64,000 bases of DNA from an uncultured Acidobacteriota bacterium (lineage in GTDB: Bacteria > Acidobacteriota > Thermoanaerobaculia > UBA5066 > DATFVB01): contig CAVZCI010000003.1 in assembly GCA_963773815.1 (NCBI GenBank), positions 219,669 to 283,668 on the forward strand, in the 5' to 3' direction. Within the stretch, counting starts at the first letter, position 1. Each line of letters starts with the position of its first letter. The position numbers were made by a program, and so were the translations under genes. A model generated the notes under the pieces. The model was not told the origin of the DNA. It saw only the letters and a program-made list of their open reading frames with translations, and did no database searches. Below are positions 26,624-38,868 of the stretch, piece by piece.

Positions 26624-26705
26624 GCACGAGCGCGGGTCACAGGCGCCTCCCTCGAGGAGACGCAGCGCGCCTGGCGGTGGCATCTTTCCGTGCGCGCTCC
26701 TCGGC

Positions 26706-26764
26706 TAAATTTTTTCGCAAGTTGTGCTAAACCGGAGTCTCAGCTGCTCCAGCGAAAAAACTTA
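26706..26764. repeat. AT-rich inverted repeat within a hairpin-rich intergenic region
   Basis: TAAATTTTTTCGC / GCGAAAAAACTTA (12 of 13 complementary), flanked by direct CGCTCCTC. Confidence 0.55.
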
Positions 26765-26978
26765 CGCTCCTCTCGGGCGCCCCGTGACCCGCGCCAGCTC
26801 GCCCGCGAAACTCGTCAGCGGCACGACAGCGAGGCGCGGCGAGCCGCGAGCCAGGTGAGATGCGGGCGAACGCGACGTCCCGAGGCGTACTGCGGCAAGT
26901 ACGTCGCAGGGCGACGCGGGCGGCACGCGCCCACATGGCTCGATGGATCGTCCGCGCCCTTGATAGGATGCCAACTCG

Positions 26979-28043
26979 ATGAAAGGTCTCATCCTCTCCG
27001 GCGGAAAGGGCACGCGGCTGCGGCCGCTGACGCACACGTCCGCGAAGCAGCTCGTGCCGGTCGCGAACAAGCCCGTTCTTTTCTACGCGATCGAGGCGAT
27101 CGTCGCCGCCGGCATCCGGGAGATCGGGATCGTCGTCGGAGACACGCGCGAAGAGGTCAAGGCCGCCGTCGGGGACGGCTCCCGGTTCGGCGCGAAGATC
27201 CGCTACATCGAGCAGGACGCGCCGCGCGGCCTCGCGCACGCGGTGCTGATCTCGGAGGATTTCCTTCGCGGCGAGCCGTTCGTCATGTACCTCGGCGACA
27301 ACCTCATCGCGAGCGGCATCACGTCGCTCGTCGACGAGTTCCAGCGGCTCAAATGCAACTCCCAGATCCTGCTCGCAAAGGTCCCGAATCCGTCGTCGTT
27401 CGGCGTCGCCGAGCTGTCGGACGGCAAAATCGTGCGCCTCGTCGAGAAGCCGGAACACCCGAAGTCGGACCTCGCCCTCGTCGGCGTGTACATGTTCGAC
27501 GACTCGATCTTCGAGGCCGTCCACGCCATTCGGCCTTCGTCCCGCAACGAGCTGGAAATCACCGACGCCATCCAGTGGCTCGTCGATCACGGCCGGTCGG
27601 TGCACCCGCACCTGGTGACCGGCTGGTGGAAAGACACGGGCAAGGTCGAGGACATGCTGGAGGCGAATCGAATCATCCTCGACACCGTTCAGGCGACCAT
27701 TCCGGCGACGCTGGGTCCGGGATCCCGCCTGGAGGGGAAGGTCGTGCTCGAAGAAGGCGCCACGCTCCACAACGCGATCGTCCGAGGCCCCGCCGTCATC
27801 GGAAAGGGCGCCCTGATCGAGAACGCGTTCGTCGGCCCCTACACGGCGATCGGCGCCGGCTGCCGGATCGTGAACTGCGAGATCGAAAATTCGATCGTCT
27901 GGGAGGGCTCGGAGATCCGCGACATCCCCGTGCGCATCGCGGATTCGCTGATCGGGCGCGGCGTCAAGATCCATCGCGGCGAAATCCGCCCGAAAGTCCA
28001 CCGGTTCCTCGTGGGGGACAACTCGGAGATCGGGATCGTATGA
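26979..28043 (+). CDS. rmlA: Glucose-1-phosphate thymidylyltransferase (long form)
   Basis: GGKGTRLRPLT, KQLVPVANKP, RNELEITDA, WWKDTG; C-terminal left-handed beta-helix. Confidence 0.95.
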   Translation: MKGLILSGGKGTRLRPLTHTSAKQLVPVANKPVLFYAIEAIVAAGIREIGIVVGDTREEVKAAVGDGSRFGAKIRYIEQDAPRGLAHAVLISEDFLRGEPFVMYLGDNLIASGITSLVDEFQRLKCNSQILLAKVPNPSSFGVAELSDGKIVRLVEKPEHPKSDLALVGVYMFDDSIFEAVHAIRPSSRNELEITDAIQWLVDHGRSVHPHLVTGWWKDTGKVEDMLEANRIILDTVQATIPATLGPGSRLEGKVVLEEGATLHNAIVRGPAVIGKGALIENAFVGPYTAIGAGCRIVNCEIENSIVWEGSEIRDIPVRIADSLIGRGVKIHRGEIRPKVHRFLVGDNSEIGIV

Positions 28044-28058
28044 ACGCGCTTCGCGCTC

Positions 28059-28120
28059 ACCTCACCCCCCGGCCTTCGGCCTACTCCACTCTGGGCGCAG
28101 CCGTGGAGAGGCGGGAAGGC
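28059..28120. repeat. REP-like palindrome
   Basis: ACCTCACCCCCCGGCCTTCGGCC...GGAGAGG. Confidence 0.6.
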
Positions 28121-28142
28121 CAGCGATTCGGGTTCGAGGTTC

Positions 28143-29155
28143 ATGAAGATCCTCGTCACCGGCGGCTGCGGCTTCATCGGCAGCGCGTTCATCCGCAACG
28201 TGCTCGGGAGCCGCCCCGGCGTTTCCGTCGTCAATCTCGACAAGCTGACCTATGCCGGCAATCCGCGAAACGTCGCGGAAGTCGCCGACTCTCCTTCGTA
28301 CCGCTTCGTTCTCGGCGACATCTGCGATCCCGCGGCCGTCGCCGACGCGATGGCGGGTTGCGACGTCGTCGTGAATTTCGCGGCGGAGACGCACGTCGAC
28401 CGGTCGCTGCTGGGAGACGCCTCGTTCATCGACACGGACGTCAAGGGCGTCTTCGTTCTTCTCGAGGAGGCGAAGCGCATCGGCGTGAAGAAGTTCATCC
28501 AGATCTCGACCGACGAAGTGTACGGTTCGATCGAGACCGGCAGCTTCACCGAGGACTCGAAGCTCACGCCCCGAAATCCGTATTCGGCCTCCAAGGCGGG
28601 AGGCGACCGGCTCGCGTATTCGTACTGGGCGTCTTACAAGGTGCCGGTCGTCATCACGAGGGCGTCGAACAACTACGGTCCCTACCAGTATCCGGAAAAG
28701 CTCATTCCCCTCTTCGTGACGAACGCGCTCGACGATCTCCCCGTCCCTCTTTACGGCGACGGGAAGAACGTGCGCGACTGGCTCCACGTCGACGACCACG
28801 CGGCCGCCGTCGAGTTCCTGATCGATCGGGGCAGCCGGGCGAGGTCTATAACGTCGCGGGCGGAAACGAGACGGAGAACATCGAGATCACGAAGAGAATC
28901 CTGAAGATCCTCGGAAAGCCGGAGAGCCTGATCCGGCCGGTCGTCGACCGGTCCGGCCACGACCGCCGCTATTCGCTCGACGCGGGCAAGCTCGCGCGGC
29001 TCGGCTTTTCGCCGAAGCGCCGCTTCGACGAGGCGATCGAGTCGACCGTGGCCTGGTACGTCGATCACCCCGAGTGGTGGAGGCCGATCAAGGACCACGA
29101 CCCCCACTACCGCGACTACTACAAGACCCAGTATTCCGAACGTCTGCGCTCGTGA
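28143..29155 (+). CDS. rmlB: dTDP-glucose 4,6-dehydratase; frameshift near 28835
   Basis: GGCGFIG, AAETHVDRS, STDEVYG, YSASK, NNYGPYQYPEKLIP; DRSGHDRRY in a second frame. Confidence 0.95.
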
Positions 29156-30292: not shown

Positions 30293-31135
30293 ATGTCCGC
30301 CGCGTTGACCCGTTCCGAGCCCGTCGTCCTGCCGGCCAGTCCTTTCGTCCTGACCCTATGGCGATATGCTGTCGGGTTCCGGCAGCCGGCGCACGCCCAC
30401 GACTCCGCTCAGATCACGATTCTCCTTCGCGGAGCGATCCGCGAGAACGTGGAAGGGCGCGAAGAGAACGGAACGCCCCTGAGCGTTGTCGTCAAGCCCG
30501 CGGGGGTGCGCCATGCCGACGAGATCGGTCCCCGCGGCGCCCGCACTCTCCAGGTTGCGTTCGCCGGGGACTTCGCCGAGAACCTGGCTGCCACCGGCGA
30601 CCCCCTCGGGCGGTGGCGCTGGATGCACGCGGGCCCGGCGGTGCGGACGATGCTCGCCCTCGCGGCCGAATTCGGCGCTGCGGGTCCCCTCGATGCTTCT
30701 CTTCTGGAAGATCGCGCCTGGGACGTGCTGGGAGCGATCGGCGAAGACGGATGCGGGACGGGGCGCGATCCTTCGGCGTTACTGCGCCGCGTCAAGGAGA
30801 GGATCGACGATGGCGACGGTCTCTCTGTCCAAGCGCTCGCGCGGGAGGCGCGATTGCATCCCGCTTCGTTGACGCGGGCCTTCCGCCGGTCCTACGGCAT
30901 CTCGGTGGTCTCGTACCGGACGCGAGAGCGTTTTCGCCGCGTGGCCGCGGCGATCGCCGCCGGGGAAGGCGACCTGACGCGCGTCGCCCACGAGCACGGG
31001 TATGCGGACCACGCTCACTTGTGTCGGGACTTCCGGCGGCGCGCGGGGCTCACGCCGTCCGGGTATTCGCGCCTCGTCGCGCGCGTCTGCGCCGGGCTCG
31101 ATTCGTTCAAGCCGTCCCGCCTCGAGACGCGGTAA
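30293..31135 (+). CDS. AraC family transcriptional regulator
   Basis: Cupin-like HAHD N-domain; double HTH (LHPASLTRAFRR; GYADHAHLCRDFRR..GLTP). Confidence 0.92.
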   Translation: MSAALTRSEPVVLPASPFVLTLWRYAVGFRQPAHAHDSAQITILLRGAIRENVEGREENGTPLSVVVKPAGVRHADEIGPRGARTLQVAFAGDFAENLAATGDPLGRWRWMHAGPAVRTMLALAAEFGAAGPLDASLLEDRAWDVLGAIGEDGCGTGRDPSALLRRVKERIDDGDGLSVQALAREARLHPASLTRAFRRSYGISVVSYRTRERFRRVAAAIAAGEGDLTRVAHEHGYADHAHLCRDFRRRAGLTPSGYSRLVARVCAGLDSFKPSRLETR

Positions 31136-31160
31136 GTTCCCGAGCGATGGAGGTGCTGCC

Positions 31161-32681
31161 GTGATCGATACCAGAGGCCGAACTCTCGGAAGAATTCTCC
31201 TCGCGGCGTTCCTGGCGCGCGCGGCCGGGGCCGCGACCCCGCCGCCGGCGGGAGACTGGAGAAAGGATGTCGACGCGTTCGCGCGCCGCGTCGTCGAATC
31301 GGGGCTGGCGCCGGGCCTCTCGCTGTCGGTCGTCGACCGGGACTGGGTGATCCACGCGAAGGGGTTCGGCGTCGCCGACCGGGACACGGGACGCGGGGTC
31401 ACCGAAGACACGCCGTTCTACATCGCCTCCAGCACGAAGGCGTTCACGGCGCTCGCCGCCGTCCGCCTCGCCGACCGGGGCGAGCTCGATCTCGACGCGC
31501 CGCTCTCGCGCTATCTTCCCGATCTCAAACTCCGGCCGCCGCTCTCGGCCGACGCGCTCACGATTCGGAACCTCCTGACGATGACGCACGGGATCCGGGA
31601 CGCAGGGCCGGTCGAGTTCCGCACGGCGATTTCCGGAGATTTCACGCGCGACGGACTGATCGCGATTCTCGGGACTTACGGCCCGTCGACGACGGGACGG
31701 GAGTTCCACTACGGCAATCTCGGCTACAACATCCTCGGCCTCGTGCTGGAGGCCCGGACGAAATCGAGCTGGAAAGACGTGGTCCGGCGGGAAGTGCTCG
31801 AGCCGGCGGGCATGAGCGAGACGAAAGCGCGTCTCACCGAGCTCGACCCGGACGCGATCGCCCGTCCGCATGTCTTCGGCCCCGACGGCTGGCGGCGAAC
31901 CCCGCTCGCCAAGAGCGATGCGACCCTGCACGCGGCCGGGGGTCTCTTCTCCTCCGCGCGAGACCTCGGGCGATTTCTCGCGGCGGAGACCGGAGGCGGC
32001 GCGATTGAGGGCGAGCGGGTGTTCCCGGCGGAGACGATCGCGCGGACGCAGAAGGCCGCGGTGGAGCAGAACCGGGAGTTCGGGCCCTTCCACCGCTTCG
32101 CGTGGGGACTGGGGTGGGACCTCACGCGGTACGAAGGCGACCTCGTCGTGAGCCGGTTCGGCGCTTTCGCCGGTTACTTCTCGCACGTCTCGTTCATGCC
32201 GGATCACGGGATCGGCGTCGCCGTTCTCGTCAACGGAGAGAATCCCGCAACCTCCGCGGCGGACCTCGTCGCGACCTACGTGTACGACCGTCTGCTCGGA
32301 AAGTCCGGTCTCGAGGAGACGTACGCGGCAAGGCTCGCCGAGCTGAAATCGAAGGCGGACGCCTATCGCCGGAAGATTTCCGAGGAGCTCGCCCGCCGGG
32401 CGGCGCGTCAGAAGCCCCTTCCTCATCCGCTGGGCGATTACGCCGGCGTCTACGAGAACCCGCGGTACGGGCGCATGGACTGGCGCGTGGTCGCCGGGGG
32501 ACTGGAGGTCCGCGTCGGCGAAGCGACGAACCGGGCGGAAGTGTACGACGCGGCCGCCAATCAGCTGCGCATCGACCTCACGGAGAGCGGCGAGGTCGTG
32601 ACGTTCCGGTTCGCGGACGGAAAGGGCGCGGCGGCCTCGCTCGAATACCTCGAGGAGGAGTGGAAGAGAGTCGCCCGATAA
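31161..32681 (+). CDS. Secreted serine hydrolase, beta-lactamase/class C family with C-terminal DUF3471-like domain
   Basis: Signal peptide, SSTK (SxxK), FHYGNLGY, C-terminal YAGVYENPRYG; GGAGG RBS. Confidence 0.9.
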   Translation: MIDTRGRTLGRILLAAFLARAAGAATPPPAGDWRKDVDAFARRVVESGLAPGLSLSVVDRDWVIHAKGFGVADRDTGRGVTEDTPFYIASSTKAFTALAAVRLADRGELDLDAPLSRYLPDLKLRPPLSADALTIRNLLTMTHGIRDAGPVEFRTAISGDFTRDGLIAILGTYGPSTTGREFHYGNLGYNILGLVLEARTKSSWKDVVRREVLEPAGMSETKARLTELDPDAIARPHVFGPDGWRRTPLAKSDATLHAAGGLFSSARDLGRFLAAETGGGAIEGERVFPAETIARTQKAAVEQNREFGPFHRFAWGLGWDLTRYEGDLVVSRFGAFAGYFSHVSFMPDHGIGVAVLVNGENPATSAADLVATYVYDRLLGKSGLEETYAARLAELKSKADAYRRKISEELARRAARQKPLPHPLGDYAGVYENPRYGRMDWRVVAGGLEVRVGEATNRAEVYDAAANQLRIDLTESGEVVTFRFADGKGAAASLEYLEEEWKRVAR

Positions 32682-32721: not shown

Positions 32722-33144
32722 TCAGAGCGGGTCGTGCACCTTCAGACCCGGAAGCGCAATGAAGTCCCGGTCGTGGGTCCAGACCTCGCCCGCGCCGTTT
32801 TCAAACGCCGCGAGCGCGATGTGAAGGTCAAAGACGCGATTTCCACGGACACCGAGATCCGACGCCAGCCGGGCGAGACGGAGGCCGAGCTCGCTCGTCT
32901 GGGGCCAGATCGCGAGGCCCGCGCCTTCCACGAGGCTGTTCAGGAACTCGAACGCCTCGTTCGGAGTCGAAGGCCTTCGAGACGACGCCGGATGCGTGAC
33001 GACAGCGAGGAATTCCGCAACCGTCGCGGCCGCGATCCCGCATCCGCGGTCCAGCGCGCGCTCGATCGCTCTCTGCGCCGGCCGGTGTTCGGGTGTCGAA
33101 GACCGATGAGCGTAGATCAGAAGGTTCGTGTCAATCGCGATCAT
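32722..33144 (-). CDS. vapC: VapC PIN-domain toxin
   Basis: MIAIDTNLLIYA, EF, DLHIA, THDRDF. Confidence 0.92.
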   Translation of the reverse strand: MIAIDTNLLIYAHRSSTPEHRPAQRAIERALDRGCGIAAATVAEFLAVVTHPASSRRPSTPNEAFEFLNSLVEGAGLAIWPQTSELGLRLARLASDLGVRGNRVFDLHIALAAFENGAGEVWTHDRDFIALPGLKVHDPL

Positions 33145-33382
33145 GTCGCCGCAGAAAGTCGCGCATCCGCTCCCGGCTCGCGAGATCGAGATCGTCCGCG
33201 AGGCGCCCGGCGACGACGACCCATCGAACCTTTCTCGCGGTTGTGCGCTTTCGGTGGCGAAGCGAGGTCAGCTCTCTTCGCAAGCCTCGCTCGAGAATCT
33301 TCTTGACCGTGCTCCTCGTTTCGGCGGCTCGTTTCTTCGCCGCGATCAGGAGCTCATCCGGCAATTCGACGGTCGTTTTCAT
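33131..33382 (-). CDS. vapB: VapB-type RHH antitoxin
   Basis: MKTTVELPDELL..AK; overlaps vapC; tandem CCATAT repeats upstream (33390-33404). Confidence 0.88.
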   Translation of the reverse strand: MKTTVELPDELLIAAKKRAAETRSTVKKILERGLRRELTSLRHRKRTTARKVRWVVVAGRLADDLDLASRERMRDFLRRHDRD

Positions 33383-34314
33383 GAGCGACCCATATTACCA
33401 TATCGGTGTTTCTCCGCCTCCGCGAGCGGGTAGCTGCGTTCCATTCCTTCCCTCACCCCGATCGGGTCGTAGCCAAGGTCCCGGCGGGCCTCGGAGTTGT
33501 CGGGCGCGGCGTCCTGCTCGATGCGGCTGATCGCGTAGCGCGTGAGCGGCGGGTTCTTCATCGTCTTTTCCATGAGGAACGCCGCCGCGCGGCAGACCGG
33601 CAGGGGAATGTAAACGAACGGTTTCGAGACTCCCTGGTGGCGCAGCATCAGCTTCGCGAGGTCGCGGATCGAGATCTCCTCGCCGCCGCTGAAGTTGTAG
33701 GTCTTGCCGTGGCTCTTCGGGTTGTTCGCGATCGCGAGGAGTCCTCGCCCGATGTCTTCGACGAAGACGGGGTTTTTCCGGGCAAGCCCCCGTCCGACGA
33801 AGGGGACGACGGGATACCGGAGCAGCGATTCCAGAAATCCCATGAATTCCAGCCCGCCGCCGCGCTCGTACGCGAGCGTCGGCCGCACGATCGTCCACGC
33901 CATCGGGCTCGCGGAGCGGACGATCTCTTCCGCGTCTGCCTTGGAGAGGGCGTATTCGGAGATCGGGTCGATTGCCGAAGTCGACGAAATGAAGACGAAG
34001 TGCCGGACGCCGGCTCGCTGCGCCGCCTCGACGACGTTCCTCGTTCCCTCCGTATTGACGCGCCGGAAGATCGTCGGATCGCTCGACAGGATGACTCCCG
34101 CCAGGTGAAACACCGTCTCGACTCCTTCGAAGAGTCCCGCGAGAGTCTCGCTTCGCGCGATGTCCCCGAACACGATTTCCGCGTTCACCCCTTCCAGCCG
34201 CGCCGCGTTCGGGTCGCCGGGCAGCGTCAGGGCGCGCACCTGGTGGCCGGCGGCGGCGAGGTCCTTCACGAACCGCGCGCCCATGACTCCCGCGCCCCCG
34301 GTGACGAAGATCAT
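33379..34314 (-). CDS. Atypical SDR / NAD-dependent epimerase (NDUFA9-like)
   Basis: TGGAGVMG, YALSK, IVRPT. Confidence 0.85.
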   Translation of the reverse strand: MIFVTGGAGVMGARFVKDLAAAGHQVRALTLPGDPNAARLEGVNAEIVFGDIARSETLAGLFEGVETVFHLAGVILSSDPTIFRRVNTEGTRNVVEAAQRAGVRHFVFISSTSAIDPISEYALSKADAEEIVRSASPMAWTIVRPTLAYERGGGLEFMGFLESLLRYPVVPFVGRGLARKNPVFVEDIGRGLLAIANNPKSHGKTYNFSGGEEISIRDLAKLMLRHQGVSKPFVYIPLPVCRAAAFLMEKTMKNPPLTRYAISRIEQDAAPDNSEARRDLGYDPIGVREGMERSYPLAEAEKHRYGNMGRS

Positions 34315-34328
34315 CAGACGCCCTCTCC

Positions 34329-34418
34329 GACCTCACCCCCGGCCTTCGGCCACCCCCTCCCGCGCTGACCCGTCTTCTGAAGGGCTGCCAGCGGGAGAGG
34401 GGGACGGGGGGTGAGGTT
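34329..34418. repeat. REP-like palindrome
   Basis: GACCTCACCCCCGGCCTTCGGCCACCCCCTCCC...GGGAGAGGGGGACGGGGGGTGAGG. Confidence 0.75.
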
Positions 34419-34435
34419 CAAGCGAATACCTCTTC

Positions 34436-35200
34436 TCATGCAGTTTCGATTGCGGTCTTGACGCCGAGAATCCGCTGATACTCGCCGCGCCGGTAGCGCC
34501 GCACGACGGCGAGCACGTCAAGGCCGTAGGAAACGGGCTTCAGGTGCGAGACCTCGTCCGCGTATCGCGTGGGAATCGCGACCTCCGCGATTCGCAGGCC
34601 GAGGATTCGCGCGCACACGAGCATTTCGAGGTCGAAGTCGAAGGAATCGGACAGCCGCGCGAACGGAATCGTCTCGAGCGCCCGGCGCGAATAGAGCATG
34701 TAGCCGCTGTGGAACTCCGCCAGGCGCATGCCGAACGCGCGGTTCTCGACGGCCGTCAGCAGCCGGTTCGCCGCGTACTTGTAGAACGGCATTCCGCCGG
34801 CGAGCGCTCCGCCGCCGAGCATCCGCGAACCCTGCACGAGATCGGCCTCGCCGCGGCGAAGGGGCGCGGAGAGCTCCGGGAGCTTTTCGGGGGCGTACTG
34901 CCCGTCGGCATGGACGATCGCGGCGATGTCCACCCCTGTTTCGAGCGCGTGGGCCAGGAGCGTCTTGACCGCGCCGCCGTAGCCGCGGTTCTTCGGATGC
35001 CGGAGAATCACGAGCGGCGGCAGCTCCGATCGGAGCCGCTCGAGAACCCGCGCCGTGTCGTCGGAGCTCCCGTCGTCCACGGCCGCGTAGGCGTAGCGCG
35101 TCGCCGTCGCGTCGGAATTCCGGGGGAGCCGGGCGACGAGCCGCTCCAGCGTGAGCGCCGCGTTGTAAGCCGGAATCGCGATCAGGAGGGAATCAGGCAT
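34436..35200 (-). CDS. GT2 glycosyltransferase (polyprenol-phosphate sugar synthase-like)
   Basis: IPAYN, VDDGSSD, NRGYGGA, HADGQY, FHSGY. Confidence 0.9.
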   Translation of the reverse strand: MPDSLLIAIPAYNAALTLERLVARLPRNSDATATRYAYAAVDDGSSDDTARVLERLRSELPPLVILRHPKNRGYGGAVKTLLAHALETGVDIAAIVHADGQYAPEKLPELSAPLRRGEADLVQGSRMLGGGALAGGMPFYKYAANRLLTAVENRAFGMRLAEFHSGYMLYSRRALETIPFARLSDSFDFDLEMLVCARILGLRIAEVAIPTRYADEVSHLKPVSYGLDVLAVVRRYRRGEYQRILGVKTAIETA

Positions 35201-36344
35201 CCGATCGGGTACGGCCGGACGAAACGCGGCCGCTCGAATTCGCCGCGGCCGGAAAATCAGCCGGTCCGGGCGATCGCAGAGCCGCCTCGCGCCGGGCGTT
35301 GACGTAGTACTGCATGGTGGGGATCAGCATTTCGGACAATCCGGTCCGGGGCTGCCATCCCAGAAGGCGCTGGGCCTTGCCGATGTCGGGGATGCGCCGG
35401 TCCGAATCCTCGTATCCGTCCCCGTAAAACTCCTTCGCGGAAACCTCGATGATCGCCGGCAGGGGGGCGCCGTCGGGGGCGAAGTGGCGCGCGTAGAGCT
35501 CCCGCATCAACTCGGCCAGCTGGCGGATCGAGACTTCGTTTCCCGGAGAGCCGATGTTGAAAATCTGGCGGTCGCACCCTCCGCCCGGGTTTTCCACGAT
35601 CCGCGCGACGCAATCGACCGCGTCCTTGATGTAGGTGTAGCACCGGCGCTGGCCGCCGCCATCGACGAGCTTCATCGGCGTGCCTTCGAGCAGCGCTTCC
35701 ATGAAATACGAAAAGACTCGCGGCACGCCGTCGGTGTCGCCCGGAAGGTAGTCGATCTTCGGTCCGATGAAGTTGAACGGCCGAATGATCGAGTAGTTGA
35801 GACGCCCCTCCAGCCCGTAGGCGTGGATCACGCGCTCCAGGAGCTGCTTGGCGCAGGCGTAGATCCACCGGTGCCGGCCGACGGGCCCCATGATGAGGTC
35901 GGTGCGGTCCTCCGCGAACGTCGCATACGCGGGGTTTTCGGGGTCCGCGATCAACTCTCCGAGCACGGCCACGGGCGTTTTTCCGTACACCTCGCAGGAG
36001 GAAAACTGGATCAGCCGCCGACTCTTGCGAATGCACGACTCGGCGATCCGGAGATTCTCCTGGAAGTTGAGCCGGAAGACCTCGAGCGGGCTTCGAACGT
36101 AAATCCCCGGGTTCGCGTGAGCGACGAGATCGATGACGACGTCCGCCGCGGCGACCGCTCCGTCGAGATCGAACGTCCGGTCGGTCACGTCCCTCTCGAC
36201 GAAGGTCAGGCGCGGGTGGTCGAGCAAATCCGCGATTTTGTCCGTGTGCACGTCGATTCCGGTCACGTCGTGCCCGCTTTCGAGCAGACGTTCCGCCAGA
36301 TGGGCTCCGATGAAACCGCCCGCCCCGAGACTCAACACCTTCAC
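35193..36344 (-). CDS. UDP-glucuronate decarboxylase family SDR, UDP-apiose/UDP-xylose synthase-like
   Basis: GAGGFIG, FSSCEVYGKT, RWIYACAKQLLER, RPFNFIGP, GVPRV, KLVDGG, KEFYGDGYEDSDRRIPD; AGGAGG RBS. Confidence 0.8.
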   Translation of the reverse strand: MKVLSLGAGGFIGAHLAERLLESGHDVTGIDVHTDKIADLLDHPRLTFVERDVTDRTFDLDGAVAAADVVIDLVAHANPGIYVRSPLEVFRLNFQENLRIAESCIRKSRRLIQFSSCEVYGKTPVAVLGELIADPENPAYATFAEDRTDLIMGPVGRHRWIYACAKQLLERVIHAYGLEGRLNYSIIRPFNFIGPKIDYLPGDTDGVPRVFSYFMEALLEGTPMKLVDGGGQRRCYTYIKDAVDCVARIVENPGGGCDRQIFNIGSPGNEVSIRQLAELMRELYARHFAPDGAPLPAIIEVSAKEFYGDGYEDSDRRIPDIGKAQRLLGWQPRTGLSEMLIPTMQYYVNARREAALRSPGPADFPAAANSSGRVSSGRTRSDA

Positions 36345-36494
36345 GATTCCCCCTCCTGTGCGGGCTCCCGGCGAATTCCGGCCGATGCCGGCGCGATTCC
36401 CTGGTTCCGCGGCGGATGAATTTCCGTTTATCTTATCCTCGCCCGGGGGCCATTCGGAAGGCGAAAATCGCGAAGGTGTTAGATTCCCGCCGAG

Positions 36495-37876
36495 ATGGCC
36501 CCGCAACCCCGAATTCCGGCCAACGACTGGAAGCGAAAGGCGCTCCATGCGGGAATGGGTCTTTTCGCCCTCGCTCTGCGCTTTCTCTCCTGGCCGGCCG
36601 CGGCGCTGCTCGCGGCAGCCGCATTGCTTTTCAACGTCGCGGTCATGCCCCGGCTCGGCCGCGGGGTCTACCGCGACGCCGGCCGCCGGCACGATCCGGG
36701 AATCGTCGCGTACCCGGCCGTCGTGCTCGCCGTCATCCTGCTTTTTCGGCATGATCTGGAGGTCGCGGCGGCGATCTGGGGGATGATGGCGCTTGGCGAC
36801 CCCCTGGCTTCCGTCGTGGGAAAGCTCATCGGCGGGCCGGCTCTTCCCTGGAACCGCAGGAAAACCTGGTCCGGCTCGATTGCCTACGCCGCGTTCGGGG
36901 CGGCCGCCGGCTCGCTGCTGTTCGCGTTCGTCGGGCGGATTCCCTTCGGAAGCGCGGTCTCGTCGTTCGCCCTCTTCGCGGTGCTCGGGGCATTCCTCGA
37001 ATCGATCGAGACCGGTTTCGACGACAACCTGACGCCGGGCCTCGGCGTCGCCTTTGCCTACGCGACGCTCCATCTCGGGGTGTTCGCCCGGGAGGGGTTC
37101 TCCCTTTCCGGCGTGCGCTCCCGTTTCGCTTCCCGTCGCTCTTGCGGTCAACGCGGCGATCGCCGGCCTCGCGACCGCGATTCGCGTGGTCTCCCTGTCG
37201 GGCGGAATCGCCGGCGCGCTCGCGGGTCTCGTCGTCCTTCGCTTCGGGGGCTGGGGAGCCTACGCGGTCCTCTGGGCGTTCTTTCTCTTCGGGACCGTCG
37301 CCTCGAAGCTCGGGTATTCGCGCAAGGAGAGGCTCGGCACCGCCCAGGCGAACCGGGCCCGCCGCGGCGCGCGCCATGTCGCGGCGAACGTCGGCGTCGG
37401 GGCCTGGCTCGCTTTCGCGGCCGGCGCCCGCTCGGCGGGCTCGCCGATCCTGGCGCTCGCGCTGGCCGGCTCGTTTGCCGCGGCTCTCGCCGACACGTTC
37501 GGCACGGAGCTCGGCACGCTGTACGGCGGCCGCCCTTACCTGCTCTCGAAGGGGAAGAGGGTCGCGCCGGGCACGAGGGGAGCGATTTCTCCGGCCGGCG
37601 TCGGCGGAGGCCTTCTCGGCGCGCTTCTGATCGGCGTGACGGGCGCTCTGGCCGGGCTCTACCCGGCGTCGGCTCCTGTGGATCGTGTTCCTCGGGGGCG
37701 TCCTCGGATCGCTCGCGGAAAGCCTCCTGATCGACCTTTCGGCCCGAATGGGGATCGACGCGGACCATGAATTCTGCAACGCGTTCAACACGTTCGTCGG
37801 CGCGGCGGCCGCGATCGAGATCGCGGCCTCGTTCGCTCTCGGCTCGGTCTTTGTTCCGTTCGGGAAGCTCGCTTGA
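36495..37876 (+). CDS. Fused prenol (phytol/dolichol) kinase-like + DUF92 membrane protein; two frameshifts
   Basis: N-half RKALH, GDPLASVVG, KTWSGS, DDNL; C-half KERLG, ADTFGTELG, PGTRGAIS, AESLL, NAFNT. Confidence 0.8.
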
Positions 37877-38868
37877 AGCCGCGGTCCGCGCTTGCGGCGC
37901 ACGTCGCTCTGTGGAGGCCCTTCACGCTGTTGCCGCCGCTGCTGGGCATTCTCTCCGGCGCGATCTGCGCATACGGGTCCGCGCACAACCCGGACCCCGC
38001 CCGCCGAGTGACGGGCGCGGTGCTTTTCACCGTGATCCTCGGCTCCATTTGCGCCTCGGCGATGAACGCCGCTTCGAACATCGTCAACCAGATCGCCGAC
38101 CTCGAGATCGACCGCAAGAACAAGCCGGGACGCCCCCTCGTCACGGGCGAGGTCACGATTCGATCTTCCTGGAAGATCGCCTGGGCGCTCTACGCGTTTT
38201 CGATCCTTCCGACCTGGTTCGTCGTGCCGTTTCCCCGGACGAGCTTCCACGAGCGCCTCACGGCGCCGTTGATCGAGCACGCGTGTTTCTTCATCTACGC
38301 GATCGGCCTCCTCGCGACGTTCGTGTATTCCTTCCGCGCGCTCGGCCGCACCAAACGCCACTGGTTCTGGGCGAATTTCACGATCGCGTCGACCCGGGGA
38401 TGCCTGCTGAAAGTCGCCGGGTGGTCCTTCCTCGCCCGCGTCAGCAGCTGGGAGCCGTGGGCGCTCGGGGGCGTGATGGGACTCTTCCTCCTCGGGGCGA
38501 CGTCGACGAAGGATTTCTCCGACATCGAGGGGGACGCGCTCCACGGGTGCCGGACGCTGCCGATTCGTTTCGGGGTCTCGGGCGCGGCGAAGATCATGGC
38601 CCCGTTCTTCGTCGTTCCGTGGCTGCTGCTTTCCGCGTTCTCGTTCGCGGCCGACCCGGCGCGTCCGGGGTCGCCCCTCCTGACGGGCAACCACGCCTTT
38701 CTCCTGTCGTTTGGGATCGCGATGGCGGCCTGGGGGGCCTACACGGCGTCGCTCCTCCTTCGGGACCCCGACGCCCTGACCTCGACGGAGAATCACCCGG
38801 CCTGGCGGCACATGTATTTGATGCTCATGGCCGCGCAAACGGGTTTCGCCGCGGCGTATCTGGTGTAA
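37873..38868 (+). CDS. UbiA superfamily prenyltransferase (DGGGP synthase / chlorophyll synthase-like)
   Basis: NQIADLEIDRKNKPGRPL and KDFSDIEGD..GCRTLP Asp-rich motifs; TTGA overlap. Confidence 0.88.
   Translation: MKPRSALAAHVALWRPFTLLPPLLGILSGAICAYGSAHNPDPARRVTGAVLFTVILGSICASAMNAASNIVNQIADLEIDRKNKPGRPLVTGEVTIRSSWKIAWALYAFSILPTWFVVPFPRTSFHERLTAPLIEHACFFIYAIGLLATFVYSFRALGRTKRHWFWANFTIASTRGCLLKVAGWSFLARVSSWEPWALGGVMGLFLLGATSTKDFSDIEGDALHGCRTLPIRFGVSGAAKIMAPFFVVPWLLLSAFSFAADPARPGSPLLTGNHAFLLSFGIAMAAWGAYTASLLLRDPDALTSTENHPAWRHMYLMLMAAQTGFAAAYLV

What the first reader, a model, noticed from the sequence alone, without database searches (positions are those of the whole stretch)
33379..36344. Plant-type UDP-apiose/UDP-xylose synthase-like gene in a bacterial glycosylation operon
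Seen: FSSCEVYGKT, RWIYACAKQLLER, RPFNFIGPKIDYLPG, GVPRV, KLVDGG, NEVSIRQLAE and KEFYGDGYEDSDRRIPD. Established (recalled motifs): these match plant AXS/UAS (FSTCEVYGKT, YACAKQ, EFYGEGYDDSDKRIPD) much better than ArnA (STSEVYG, YSVSKQ) or UXS. Bacterial apiose synthesis is known from only a few genera. One catalytic Cys (SCE) is kept, but the position of the second (AAICTP in Arabidopsis) reads VAHANP, so the apiose/xylose ratio is uncertain. The gene is coupled to a GT2 of the polyprenol-P-sugar synthase type and an atypical SDR. Inference: a lipid-carrier route placing apiose or xylose on the cell surface.
Basis: partly seen in the sequence, partly recalled or inferred. Interest (0 to 1): 0.72.

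Follow-up and report, generated by a model that had tools for sequence, protein, structure and literature searches.

The report
Bacterial apiose-synthase and lipid-carrier glycosyltransferase operon
An uncultured Thermoanaerobaculia (Acidobacteriota) bacterium carries a close relative of the one proven Entotheonella enzyme that makes the "plant" sugar apiose, fused in an operon to an enzyme that most likely loads that sugar onto a membrane lipid carrier; the same gene pair is conserved across at least 17 bacterial phyla, so bacterial apiose may be far commoner than the literature says.

Summary
Window 35193-36344(-) encodes an intact 383-aa extended SDR carrying every quoted motif. It is 57% identical to CeUAS, the Candidatus Entotheonella enzyme shown in vitro to make UDP-apiose plus UDP-xylose. 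It is 43% identical to Arabidopsis UAXS1, 41% to the ArnA C-domain and 25% to UXS.

CeUAS also lacks the "second" Cys (Cys100 of Arabidopsis). That substitution therefore does not argue against apiose synthesis.

The same genome separately encodes a canonical UXS, a UDP-glucose dehydrogenase and a true ArnA-type decarboxylase.

The downstream 254-aa GT2 overlaps the synthase stop codon by 8 nt. An orthologue sits beside the synthase in 66 of 80 related loci from 17 phyla, Entotheonella included. Its predicted fold matches polyprenyl-phosphate glycosyltransferases best (ArnC, DPMS, GtrB).

In other genomes the pair adjoins PMT_2-type GT-C transferases. None is adjacent here.

The third gene is a canonical extended SDR, not an atypical one, and is an accessory found in 15 of 80 loci.

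Verdict: this is a new member of the CeUAS-type synthases, set in a conserved and undescribed lipid-carrier pentosylation module. Whether the sugar is apiose or xylose, the acceptor, and the lipid intermediate are all untested.

The parts
35193..36344 (-). [quoted passage not shown] Arabidopsis residue -> residue here: GxxGxxG = G7-G13; Cys100 -> Ala77; Tyr105 -> Tyr82; Thr139 -> Ser116; Cys140 -> Cys117; Glu141 -> Glu118; Arg182 -> Arg159; Tyr185 -> Tyr162; Lys189 -> Lys166; Asn214 -> Asn191; Arg341 -> Arg317.
   Evidence: 57% identical to CeUAS and 43% to AtUAXS1. Loop of 37 residues, as in plant UAS.
34436..35200 (-). 254-aa GT2 glycosyltransferase of the DPM1/ArnC/GtrB class with no transmembrane helix; probably a polyprenyl-phosphate pentosyl (apiosyl or xylosyl) transferase. 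Translationally coupled: its ATG at 35200 overlaps the synthase stop by 8 nt.
   Evidence: An orthologue lies beside the synthase in 66 of 80 loci: 62 start within -8..+103 nt of its stop and 4 lie directly upstream.
34315..34435 (-). 121-nt G+C-rich spacer between GT2 and SDR with an inverted repeat (CCCCCTCTCCCGC ... GCGGGAGGGGG). Role unknown; it has no T-tail, so it is not a classical terminator.
   Evidence: sequence. One search reports no terminator there. One search finds no Rfam match.
33379..34314 (-). 311-aa extended SDR (TGGAGVMG, S111, Y121xxxK125), an accessory member of the module. Substrate unknown; it could act on the nucleotide- or lipid-linked pentose as an epimerase or reductase.
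   Evidence: An orthologue lies next to the GT2 in 15 of 80 loci.
36345..36494 (.). Divergent intergenic region upstream of the synthase; presumed promoter region of the operon.
   Evidence: sequence. No sigma-70 consensus and no Rfam family.

Best explanation
The three minus-strand genes form the cytoplasmic half of a lipid-carrier pentosylation pathway.

Step 1, inferred from a 57%-identical characterised orthologue. The 383-aa SDR uses tightly bound NAD+ to oxidise UDP-glucuronic acid at C4. It then opens, decarboxylates and re-closes the ring to give UDP-alpha-D-apiofuranose, with UDP-xylose as co-product. UDP-GlcA would come from the genome's own UDP-glucose dehydrogenase.

Step 2, inferred from fold, motifs and conserved gene context. 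The translationally coupled GT2 transfers the pentose from UDP to a polyprenyl (undecaprenyl-type) phosphate at the inner face of the membrane. The favoured sugar is the labile UDP-apiose, because these genomes have a separate UXS for UDP-xylose.

Step 3, inferred only from other genomes. The lipid-linked sugar is flipped and used by a GT-C (PMT_2-type, often TPR-bearing) transferase to decorate an unknown envelope acceptor. That enzyme is not encoded next to the operon in this organism.

The extended SDR is an optional tailoring enzyme of unknown substrate.
For: Synthase:
- Best PDB hit is AtUAXS1, 313 bits.
- 57% identical to CeUAS.
- Nests in the clade holding CeUAS and its Entotheonella orthologue L079.
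- In the better-sampled tree this clade joins the Cys100-type UAS (plants, Gr/Xp/YpUAS) with SH-aLRT 97, apart from ArnA/U4kpxs.
- It has the UAS-length loop, Cys140, Glu141, Arg182, Tyr185, Lys189, Asn214 and Arg341.

Non-redundancy:
- The same genome has a canonical UXS (55% to human), a UGD, and an ArnA-type decarboxylase 60% identical to the E. coli ArnA C-domain. The latter scores 566 bits on NF008872 against 330 for the query.
- 19 of 20 other genomes with the module also have a UXS.

GT2:
- Pfam PF00535.
- Best PDB sequence hits are DPMS and ArnC.
- The model has pLDDT 90.9, and its 25 best Foldseek hits are all ArnC, DPMS or GtrB, with TM about 0.70.
- The 8-nt overlap with the synthase stop recurs identically in 18 loci. 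GT2 is adjacent in 66 of 80 loci from 17 phyla.

GT-C link:
- 48 of 80 loci have a large polytopic ORF nearby.
- 6 of 10 tested are PMT_2 above Pfam's threshold, some in overlapping-stop operons of the form UAS-GT2-SDR-GT-C.
Against: - No enzyme of this operon has been assayed.
- CeUAS product ratios were not quantified, and its in-microbe signal was weak (shown amplified 10x).
- The AU test does not reject a tree joining the CeUAS clade to ArnA/U4kpxs (p = 0.143), and a sparsely sampled tree showed exactly that.
- The query passes NCBIfam's U4kpxs cut-off (330 against 294).
- The GT2 has no transmembrane helix. It replaces the DAD metal motif by an invariant H-x-D-G-Q and reaches no NCBIfam equivalog cut-off.
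- Soluble GpgS is the next-best fold match (TM 0.65).
- No GT-C, flippase or acceptor gene lies in the window, and no orthologue of the module-linked GT-Cs was found in this 79%-complete genome.
- The sugar actually transferred (apiose or xylose) is not determinable from sequence.
Confidence: 0.6

Rival explanations
1. The pathway delivers xylose (or a 4-keto-pentose), not apiose. In vivo the CeUAS-type enzyme would work mainly as a UDP-xylose or UDP-4-keto-xylose synthase, as NCBI's name for the clade says, and the GT2 would make polyprenyl-phosphate-xylose.
For: - Cys100, described as key for proton transfer and ring opening in AtUAXS (PMC12820599), is Ala here.
- NF008872 (U4kpxs) is passed at 330 bits against a cut-off of 294.
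- The AU test does not exclude sisterhood with ArnA/U4kpxs.
- All UAS enzymes co-produce UDP-Xyl.
Against: - CeUAS has the same Ala and still makes UDP-Api.
- NF008872 does not discriminate. The Entotheonella orthologue scores 352 and Arabidopsis UAXS1 293, while the genome's true ArnA-type paralogue scores 566.
- The genome, and 19 of 20 other module carriers, already have a canonical UXS.
- The UAS-type loop and Cys140 are kept.
Confidence: 0.2
2. The GT2 is not a lipid-carrier enzyme. It would transfer the pentose directly to a final acceptor in the cytoplasm: a small phosphorylated acid as GpgS does, a membrane lipid, or a secondary metabolite.
For: - There is no transmembrane helix in 254 aa.
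- GpgS is a good second-tier fold match (E = 4e-10, TM 0.65).
- No GT-C lies in this window.
- In G. roseus and X. pisi, apiose was found in methanol-soluble material and not in chloroform extracts.
Against: - The 25 best fold matches are all polyprenyl-phosphate GTs.
- The GSR...GG...P-F-Y-K/R segment aligns with the acceptor-side helix region of DPMS. Assigning a function to that segment rests on my own knowledge of DPMS.
- PMT_2 GT-C genes, which need a polyprenyl-phosphate-sugar donor, sit in the same operon in several phyla.
- TM-less members of this class are known, such as human DPM1 (own knowledge).
Confidence: 0.13
3. The operon is an Arn-like (Ara4N-type) lipid A modification pathway in which the SDR stands in for ArnA.
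For: 41% identity to the ArnA C-domain, and an ArnC-like fold for the GT2.
Against: - There is no aminotransferase, formyltransferase, deformylase or ArnT in the window.
- The genome has a separate Arn-like locus on contig C14, with an ArnA-type decarboxylase 60% identical to E. coli's plus ArnC- and ArnD-like genes.
- The ArnA-diagnostic AIATP/STSE/short loop is absent.
Confidence: 0.03

Closest known systems
CeUAS, the UDP-apiose/UDP-xylose synthase of Candidatus Entotheonella (Smith & Bar-Peled 2017, PMC5607165)
   Same: - Same clade and 57% identity.
- Same A-[YH]-A-N-P in place of A-I-C-T-P.
- Same S-[ST]-C-E, same 37-residue loop and same DSDRRIPD.
- The Entotheonella orthologue (L079) has the same GT2 8 nt downstream.
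   Different: Not assayed. The host is a Thermoanaerobaculia MAG. The operon carries an extra SDR. The 2017 paper reported 'no apparent conserved operon' around bUAS genes, whereas the GT2 partner is in fact conserved.
Arabidopsis UAXS1/AXS1 (PDB 6H0N/6H0P) and the Cys100-type bacterial UAS (GrUAS, XpUAS, YpUAS)
   Same: Best PDB hit. All catalytic and substrate-binding residues except Cys100 are conserved, and the loop has the same length. The two groups join in the sampled tree with SH-aLRT 97.
   Different: 43-45% identity. Cys100 is Ala here. Gr/Xp/YpUAS keep Cys100 but have Ser at position 140. X. pisi uses a Leloir GT90 apiosyltransferase and a different GT2 (PF13704), not a DPM1-like GT2.
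ArnA C-terminal decarboxylase and Ralstonia U4kpxs, with ArnC and ArnT
   Same: Same SDR superfamily and same substrate, UDP-GlcA. The pathway logic is the same: decarboxylase, then a GT2 that loads the product on undecaprenyl phosphate, then a GT-C.
   Different: The loop is 22 residues, with AIATP and STSE motifs, and the enzyme releases a 4-keto-pentose that needs an aminotransferase. None of that applies here, and the genome has its own ArnA-type enzyme elsewhere.
Three-component polyprenyl-phosphate-sugar decoration systems (GtrA/GtrB/GtrC; DPMS with PMT; ArnC/ArnT; PpgS-type)
   Same: The GT2 fold matches GtrB, ArnC and DPMS. PMT_2 GT-C partners are adjacent in many related loci.
   Different: - The donor sugar would be apiose or xylose, which no paper in the searched library reports on a polyprenyl carrier.
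- The GT2 lacks TM helices and has HxDGQ in place of DADLQ.
- No GtrA-like flippase was identified.
- No GT-C lies in this window.

Membership tests
UDP-apiose/UDP-xylose synthase (UAXS/UAS) | Extended SDR with GxxGxxG and a Ser/Thr-Tyr-Lys triad, plus the decarboxylase residues Glu141, Arg182, Asn214, Arg341 and Tyr105 | tested here: met
   G7-G13, S116, Y162, K166, E118, R159, N191, R317 and Y82, read from the alignments. The residue list comes from PMC12820599 Table 3.
UDP-apiose/UDP-xylose synthase (UAXS/UAS) | Cys140 next to the catalytic Thr/Ser (S-T-C-E) | tested here: met
   S-S-C-E, with Cys117. It is invariant in 16 clade members. One clade member, L015, has Ser.
UDP-apiose/UDP-xylose synthase (UAXS/UAS) | Cys100 (A-I-C-T-P), the proposed proton-transfer residue for ring opening in the plant enzyme | tested here: not met
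   The query reads A-H-A-N-P (Ala77). The proven CeUAS (A-Y-A-N-P) and L079 lack it too, so it is not defining for the bacterial CeUAS type.
UDP-apiose/UDP-xylose synthase (UAXS/UAS) | Insertion of about 15 residues between EVYG and RW-x-Y-xxx-K | tested here: met
   37 residues, as in plants (36-37). ArnA and U4kpxs have 22 and UXS has 20.
UDP-apiose/UDP-xylose synthase (UAXS/UAS) | Groups phylogenetically with experimentally proven UAS enzymes | tested here: met
   The query lies in the clade containing CeUAS. The join with plant and Gr/Xp/Yp UAS has SH-aLRT 97. However, sisterhood of the CeUAS clade with ArnA is not rejected (AU p = 0.143).
UDP-apiose/UDP-xylose synthase (UAXS/UAS) | Converts UDP-GlcA to UDP-apiose | not testable with these tools
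   Needs an enzyme assay. It is shown only for CeUAS, 57% identical.
[quoted passage not shown] | Score above the curated NCBIfam cut-off | tested here: inconclusive
   330 bits against a cut-off of 294. The control shows the cut-off does not separate UAS from U4kpxs: L079 scores 352, AtUAXS1 293, and the genome's true paralogue 566.
[quoted passage not shown] | A-I-A-T-P, S-T-S-E and a short (21-22 residue) loop; operon with an aminotransferase and ArnT | tested here: not met
   for the motifs. No such genes lie in the window. A separate Arn-like locus lies on C14.
UDP-xylose synthase (UXS) | High similarity to UXS and the UXS motif set (PASP, RxCYDEGK) | tested here: not met
   25% identity to human UXS. 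The genome's real UXS is at C12:35276-36103.
Polyprenyl-phosphate glycosyltransferase GT2 (DPM1/GtrB/ArnC class) | GT-A fold closest to solved members of the class | tested here: met
   The top 25 Foldseek PDB hits are ArnC, DPMS or GtrB, with E down to 2e-14 and TM about 0.70. phmmer best hits are DPMS and ArnC.
Polyprenyl-phosphate glycosyltransferase GT2 (DPM1/GtrB/ArnC class) | D-A-D-L-Q metal-binding motif | tested here: not met
   H97-A-D99-G-Q101. His, Asp, Gly and Gln are invariant in 36 orthologues, so this is a variant motif.
Polyprenyl-phosphate glycosyltransferase GT2 (DPM1/GtrB/ArnC class) | C-terminal transmembrane helices | tested here: not met
   The 254-aa protein ends in short amphipathic helices. 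This feature is not universal in the class; human DPM1 lacks them (own knowledge).
Polyprenyl-phosphate glycosyltransferase GT2 (DPM1/GtrB/ArnC class) | Genomic partnership with a GT-C transferase that consumes the lipid-linked sugar | tested here: inconclusive
   Met in related loci: PMT_2 above threshold in 6 of 10 tested neighbours. Not met in this window or detectably in this genome.
Polyprenyl-phosphate glycosyltransferase GT2 (DPM1/GtrB/ArnC class) | Forms a polyprenyl-phosphate-sugar | not testable with these tools
   Needs a membrane assay and lipid LC-MS.

The most novel reading that the evidence does not exclude
The synthase-GT2 pair would be the core of the first lipid-linked (non-Leloir) apiosylation pathway. 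Polyprenyl-phosphate-apiofuranose would be made in the cytoplasm and used by GT-C enzymes to put apiose on envelope glycans, lipids or proteins. Because the pair is conserved in about 200 species genomes from at least 17 phyla, notably soil Acidobacteriota, apiose would be a widespread bacterial surface sugar rather than a plant speciality with a few bacterial exceptions. The clade would also show that ring contraction can proceed without the Cys100 used by the plant enzyme.
Probability: 0.4. Interest if true: 0.78.

Novelty: new variant of a known kind. Interest (0 to 1): 0.62.

Why it matters
Published evidence for bacterial apiose covers two organisms plus three recombinant enzymes, and the authors saw no conserved gene context. 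Here the CeUAS-type synthase turns out to be one half of a tightly coupled two-gene module. The identical 8-nt overlap recurs in 18 loci. The module spreads across 17 phyla and is often joined to GT-C transferases.

If the sugar carried is apiose, three things follow:
- A new class of lipid-linked donor would be defined.
- There would be a biochemical rationale for the coupling, since channelling would protect the labile UDP-apiose.
- There would be a new and probably common envelope decoration in abundant, poorly studied soil bacteria.

The finding also flags a systematic annotation problem. [quoted passage not shown] In addition, the clade offers a natural experiment on the role of Cys100 in the ring-contraction mechanism.

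Tried and rejected
1. A sparse tree of references plus 80 clade members put ArnA and U4kpxs as sister to the CeUAS clade, with a long-branch warning. Adding 58 cluster representatives moved ArnA/U4kpxs outside a UAS supergroup. The AU test could not reject the first topology, so deep placement is reported as unresolved.

2. An early tblastn table suggested that a gene of about 1.8 kb lies between the synthase and the GT2 in some loci. Inspecting the ORFs showed this came from secondary hits; the GT2 is directly adjacent.

3. Savino et al. 2019, the primary source on Cys100, is not held in the library. Its role is cited second-hand from PMC12820599.

4. The rest of the S1 Fig text was unreadable, so the reference sequences for Ce, Gr, Xp, Yp and Rs are C-terminally truncated machine-read transcriptions with possible errors. 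L079 provided an exact Entotheonella sequence as a check; it is 83% identical to the transcribed CeUAS.

5. The DUF92-fusion and UbiA genes across the divergent promoter were considered as part of the system. They were rejected because they co-occur with the module only in the two closest relatives.

6. A hopanoid HpnA/HpnB reading of the SDR and GT2 was considered. It was rejected: HpnA scores 107 bits against a cut-off of 368, and there is no HpnB hit.

7. The fold search of the SDR was uninformative. It gave a generic extended SDR, with Gox2253, NDUFA9 and sugar epimerases all scoring about equally.

8. No riboswitch, known RNA or sigma-70 consensus was found around the operon.


Full report
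**1. What is in the window**

The finding's span holds three co-oriented minus-strand genes.

The first gene runs 35193-36344. It starts at GTG 36344, behind a GGAGGGGG ribosome-binding site, and encodes 383 aa. At the position of Arabidopsis Cys100 the protein reads V-A-H-A-N-P.

The second gene, 34436-35200, encodes a 254-aa family-2 glycosyltransferase. Its ATG sits inside the last codons of the first gene, giving an 8-nt overlap.

A 121-nt G+C-rich spacer with an inverted repeat follows. Then comes a 311-aa SDR at 33379-34314. All three reading frames are intact.

That needed checking, because neighbouring genes carry frameshifts. These are rmlB and the DUF92 fusion gene at 36495-37770, which is a single 459-aa ORF in the closest relative L001.

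**2. Identity of the first gene**

- Pfam sees only the generic epimerase/dehydratase family.
- Against PDB sequences the best hit is Arabidopsis UDP-apiose/UDP-xylose synthase (6h0p/6h0n, 313 bits). ArnA follows at 280 bits and human UXS at 83 bits.
- Reference sequences were transcribed from supplementary Figure S1 of Smith & Bar-Peled 2017 (PMC5607165). Identity of the protein to each reference:

| Reference | Identity |
|---|---|
| CeUAS (Candidatus Entotheonella) | 57% |
| GrUAS / XpUAS | 43-45% |
| AtUAXS1 | 43% |
| ArnA C-domain | 41% |
| Ralstonia U4kpxs | 38% |
| human UXS | 25% |

CeUAS was expressed, purified and shown by LC-MS/MS and 1H-NMR to convert UDP-GlcA into UDP-apiose and UDP-xylose.

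The residue table confirms that the query keeps the whole catalytic and substrate set listed for UAXS in PMC12820599, with one exception: Cys100 is Ala77. The equivalents are Tyr82, Ser116, Cys117, Glu118, Arg159, Tyr162, Lys166, Asn191 and Arg317.

CeUAS (A-Y-A-N-P) and its exact Entotheonella orthologue from locus L079 (A-H-A-N-P) lack that Cys too. The loop between EVYG and RW-Y-K is 37 residues here, as in plants, against 22 in ArnA/U4kpxs and 20 in UXS.

**3. Phylogeny**

A first tree (references plus 80 clade members) placed the query firmly with CeUAS. It also made ArnA and U4kpxs the sister of that clade, with a long-branch warning.

Fifty-eight representatives of 50%-identity clusters from the 1.8-billion-protein library were then added. 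The resulting tree separates an ArnA/U4kpxs clade (SH-aLRT 95) from a UAS supergroup (SH-aLRT 97). The supergroup contains both the Cys100-type enzymes (plants, GrUAS, XpUAS, YpUAS) and the CeUAS-type clade with the query.

An AU test does not reject forcing the CeUAS clade and ArnA together (p = 0.143). Membership of the CeUAS clade is therefore robust. The deeper statement "nearer to plant AXS than to ArnA" is favoured but not proven.

**4. The NCBI name is not evidence against this reading**

[quoted passage not shown] This explains NCBI's label on relatives.

A control shows that the model does not discriminate:

| Protein | NF008872 score (bits) |
|---|---|
| This genome's ArnA-type paralogue | 566 |
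| Entotheonella orthologue of CeUAS (L079) | 352 |
| Query | 330 |
| Arabidopsis UAXS1 | 293 |

JGI already names many members "UDP-apiose/xylose synthase".

**5. The genome has the other UDP-GlcA decarboxylases as well**

In the window's 3.24-Mb, 79%-complete assembly, tblastn finds the following:
- a canonical UXS at C12:35276-36103, 55% identical to human UXS;
- a UDP-glucose dehydrogenase-type gene at C12:39045-40274;
- an ArnA-type decarboxylase at C14:336475-337494, 60% identical to the E. coli ArnA C-domain. It lies in a locus with ArnC-like and ArnD-like genes.

Of 20 other genomes carrying the module, 19 also have a canonical UXS. The CeUAS-type enzyme is thus not the cell's source of UDP-xylose or of the Ara4N precursor. 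Smith & Bar-Peled used the same argument for a dedicated apiose role.

**6. The conserved partner**

A scan of 185,579 species genomes with two clade-specific peptide patterns found 198 genomes. The 80 best loci come from 17 named phyla, 35 of them Acidobacteriota, and all are MAGs.

An orthologue of the window's GT2 (47-91% identical) lies beside the synthase in 66 loci:
- In 62 its start is within -8 to +103 nt of the synthase stop.
- 18 loci have exactly the window's 8-nt overlap.
- In four Verrucomicrobiota loci the order is reversed.

Two further loci hold a GT2 orthologue farther downstream, at +210 nt (L039) and +891 nt (L004).

Entotheonella has the pair too (L079, +8 nt). The 2017 paper reported no conserved operon around bUAS genes. 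With today's data the synthase-GT2 pair is clearly a unit.

Among 61 relatives of the window's genome, the CeUAS-type gene occurs in four: the window's own genome, the two other genomes of its genus, and one genome of the sister genus. The others have only the ArnA type. Together with the phylum-mixing gene tree, this points to lateral spread of the module.

**7. What the GT2 is**

- Pfam gives PF00535.
- NCBIfam gives only weak hits to polyprenyl-phosphate transferases (PpgS, dolichyl-phosphate hexose transferase, AglJ, ArnC), all far below their cut-offs.
- The best PDB sequence hits are Pyrococcus dolichyl-phosphate-mannose synthase and ArnC.
- An AlphaFold2 model built on 36 orthologues (pLDDT 90.9) has ArnC, DPMS and GtrB as its 25 best Foldseek matches, with E down to 2e-14 and TM about 0.70. 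Soluble glucosyl-3-phosphoglycerate synthase comes next (E = 4e-10, TM 0.65).

The protein differs from the solved members in two ways. It has no transmembrane helix, and an invariant H-x-D-G-Q stands where they have D-A-D-L-Q.

**8. Evidence for the extracytoplasmic half of the pathway**

Forty-eight of the 80 loci encode a polytopic protein of at least 380 aa within about 4 kb of the synthase.

Ten were tested, and six match Pfam PMT_2 above its gathering score. PMT_2 is the GT-C family of ArnT and protein O-mannosyltransferases, which use polyprenyl-phosphate sugars. Several of the six carry C-terminal TPR repeats.

- In L023 and L058 the order is synthase-GT2-SDR-GT-C, with overlapping stops and starts.
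- In L046 the GT-C precedes the synthase.
- Nineteen Bryobacterales-type loci have instead a divergent, unclassified polytopic protein of about 650 aa.

This is the anatomy of the three-component lipid-linked decoration systems (GtrB/GtrC, ArnC/ArnT, DPMS/PMT).

In this window no such gene is adjacent. After the SDR comes a VapBC pair, then a beta-lactamase-family gene and an AraC-type regulator. In L001 the rml genes follow directly.

No orthologue of the module-linked GT-Cs was found in the incomplete genome. Only distant GT-C-like candidates exist, for example C12:89558-91600 and C14:348206-350197.

**9. The SDR**

It carries TGGAGVMG and an invariant Ser111, Tyr121 and Lys125. It is therefore a canonical extended SDR, not an atypical one.

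Sequence and fold searches give only generic neighbours: Gox2253, the complex-I subunit NDUFA9, and nucleotide-sugar epimerases and dehydratases. HpnA is hit far below its cut-off.

It accompanies the pair in 15 of 80 loci scattered over the tree. It is thus an optional tailoring enzyme. Its substrate, nucleotide-linked or lipid-linked pentose, is unknown.

**10. Mechanism proposed, with status of each step**

- UDP-GlcA supply by a UGD: the gene is present.
- Oxidative decarboxylation with ring contraction to UDP-apiose, plus UDP-xylose: inferred from a 57%-identical characterised orthologue and conserved residues.
- Transfer to polyprenyl phosphate by the coupled GT2: inferred from fold and from conserved context with GT-C enzymes.
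- Choice of apiose over xylose: inferred from the independent UXS and from the tight coupling, which suits a labile donor (UDP-apiose cyclises in vitro).
- Flipping, and transfer by a GT-C to an unknown acceptor: inferred only from other genomes.

No paper in the searched library connects apiose with a polyprenyl carrier.

**11. Relation to earlier notes of this scan**

Other agents described loci in Polyangia with a UAXS-type synthase, a DPM1-like GT2, a GT-C and O-acetylation genes, and reached the same reading. These are AI notes and were not used as support.

The loci analysed here independently show the synthase-GT2-GT-C association in other phyla. The window adds a minimal three-gene version in Thermoanaerobaculia, the direct link to the characterised CeUAS, and the demonstration that the pair is conserved in Entotheonella itself.

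**12. Verdict**

The synthase is a new member of a known, characterised kind. The conserved synthase-GT2(-SDR)(-GT-C) module is a new variant of the polyprenyl-phosphate-sugar decoration systems. Its sugar and its acceptor are both unproven.

Noticed in passing
window 36495-37770 (+): A membrane-domain/DUF92 fusion gene is broken by two frameshifts, near 37090 and near 37690, relative to an intact 459-aa ORF in the closest relative (L001:8472-9851, minus strand). This is either a pseudogene or indel errors in the assembly. The N-terminal half has no Pfam hit.
   Followed up: partly
window 28143-29155 (+): rmlB (dTDP-glucose 4,6-dehydratase) is split by a frameshift near 28850. The C-terminal third reads in the frame of the long ORF 26690-29155. 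rmlA (26979-28043) and rmlD (to 30272) look intact.
   Followed up: no
window 32722-33382 (-): A VapB-like (83 aa) and PIN/VapC (140 aa) pair begins 4 nt inside the SDR stop. This pair, the beta-lactamase-family gene (31002-32681) and the AraC-type regulator (30293-31135) are absent at this position in L001, where the rml genes directly follow the SDR. That suggests an insertion.
   Followed up: partly
own genome, contig C14:334600-351700: A separate Arn-like locus holds an ArnC-like GT2 with TM helices, an ArnA-type decarboxylase (60% identical to E. coli), an ArnD-like deacetylase, a 250-aa paralogue of the window's GT2 (38% identical), a 663-aa polytopic protein and a GT2-methyltransferase fusion.
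   Followed up: partly
NCBIfam NF008872, tested on the window protein, L079 and AtUAXS1: [quoted passage not shown] RefSeq names for this clade are therefore probably wrong.
   Followed up: yes
L009, L014, L019 and others, e.g. L014:7982-9940 (-): A family of polytopic membrane proteins of about 650 aa, with no Pfam or NCBIfam match and a DDEFSF motif in the first loop, is encoded divergently next to the synthase in 19 Bryobacterales-type loci. It may be an unclassified GT-C.
   Followed up: partly
L015 (Planctomycetaceae MAG) synthase: This clade member has neither Cys100 (A-Y-A-N-P) nor Cys140 (S-S-S-E). If it is active as a UAS, neither cysteine would be essential.
   Followed up: no
window 37873-38868 (+): A UbiA-family prenyltransferase scores closest to the chlorophyll-synthase and DGGGP-synthase models, but far below their cut-offs. 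It is conserved next to the DUF92 fusion only in L001 and L002.
   Followed up: no
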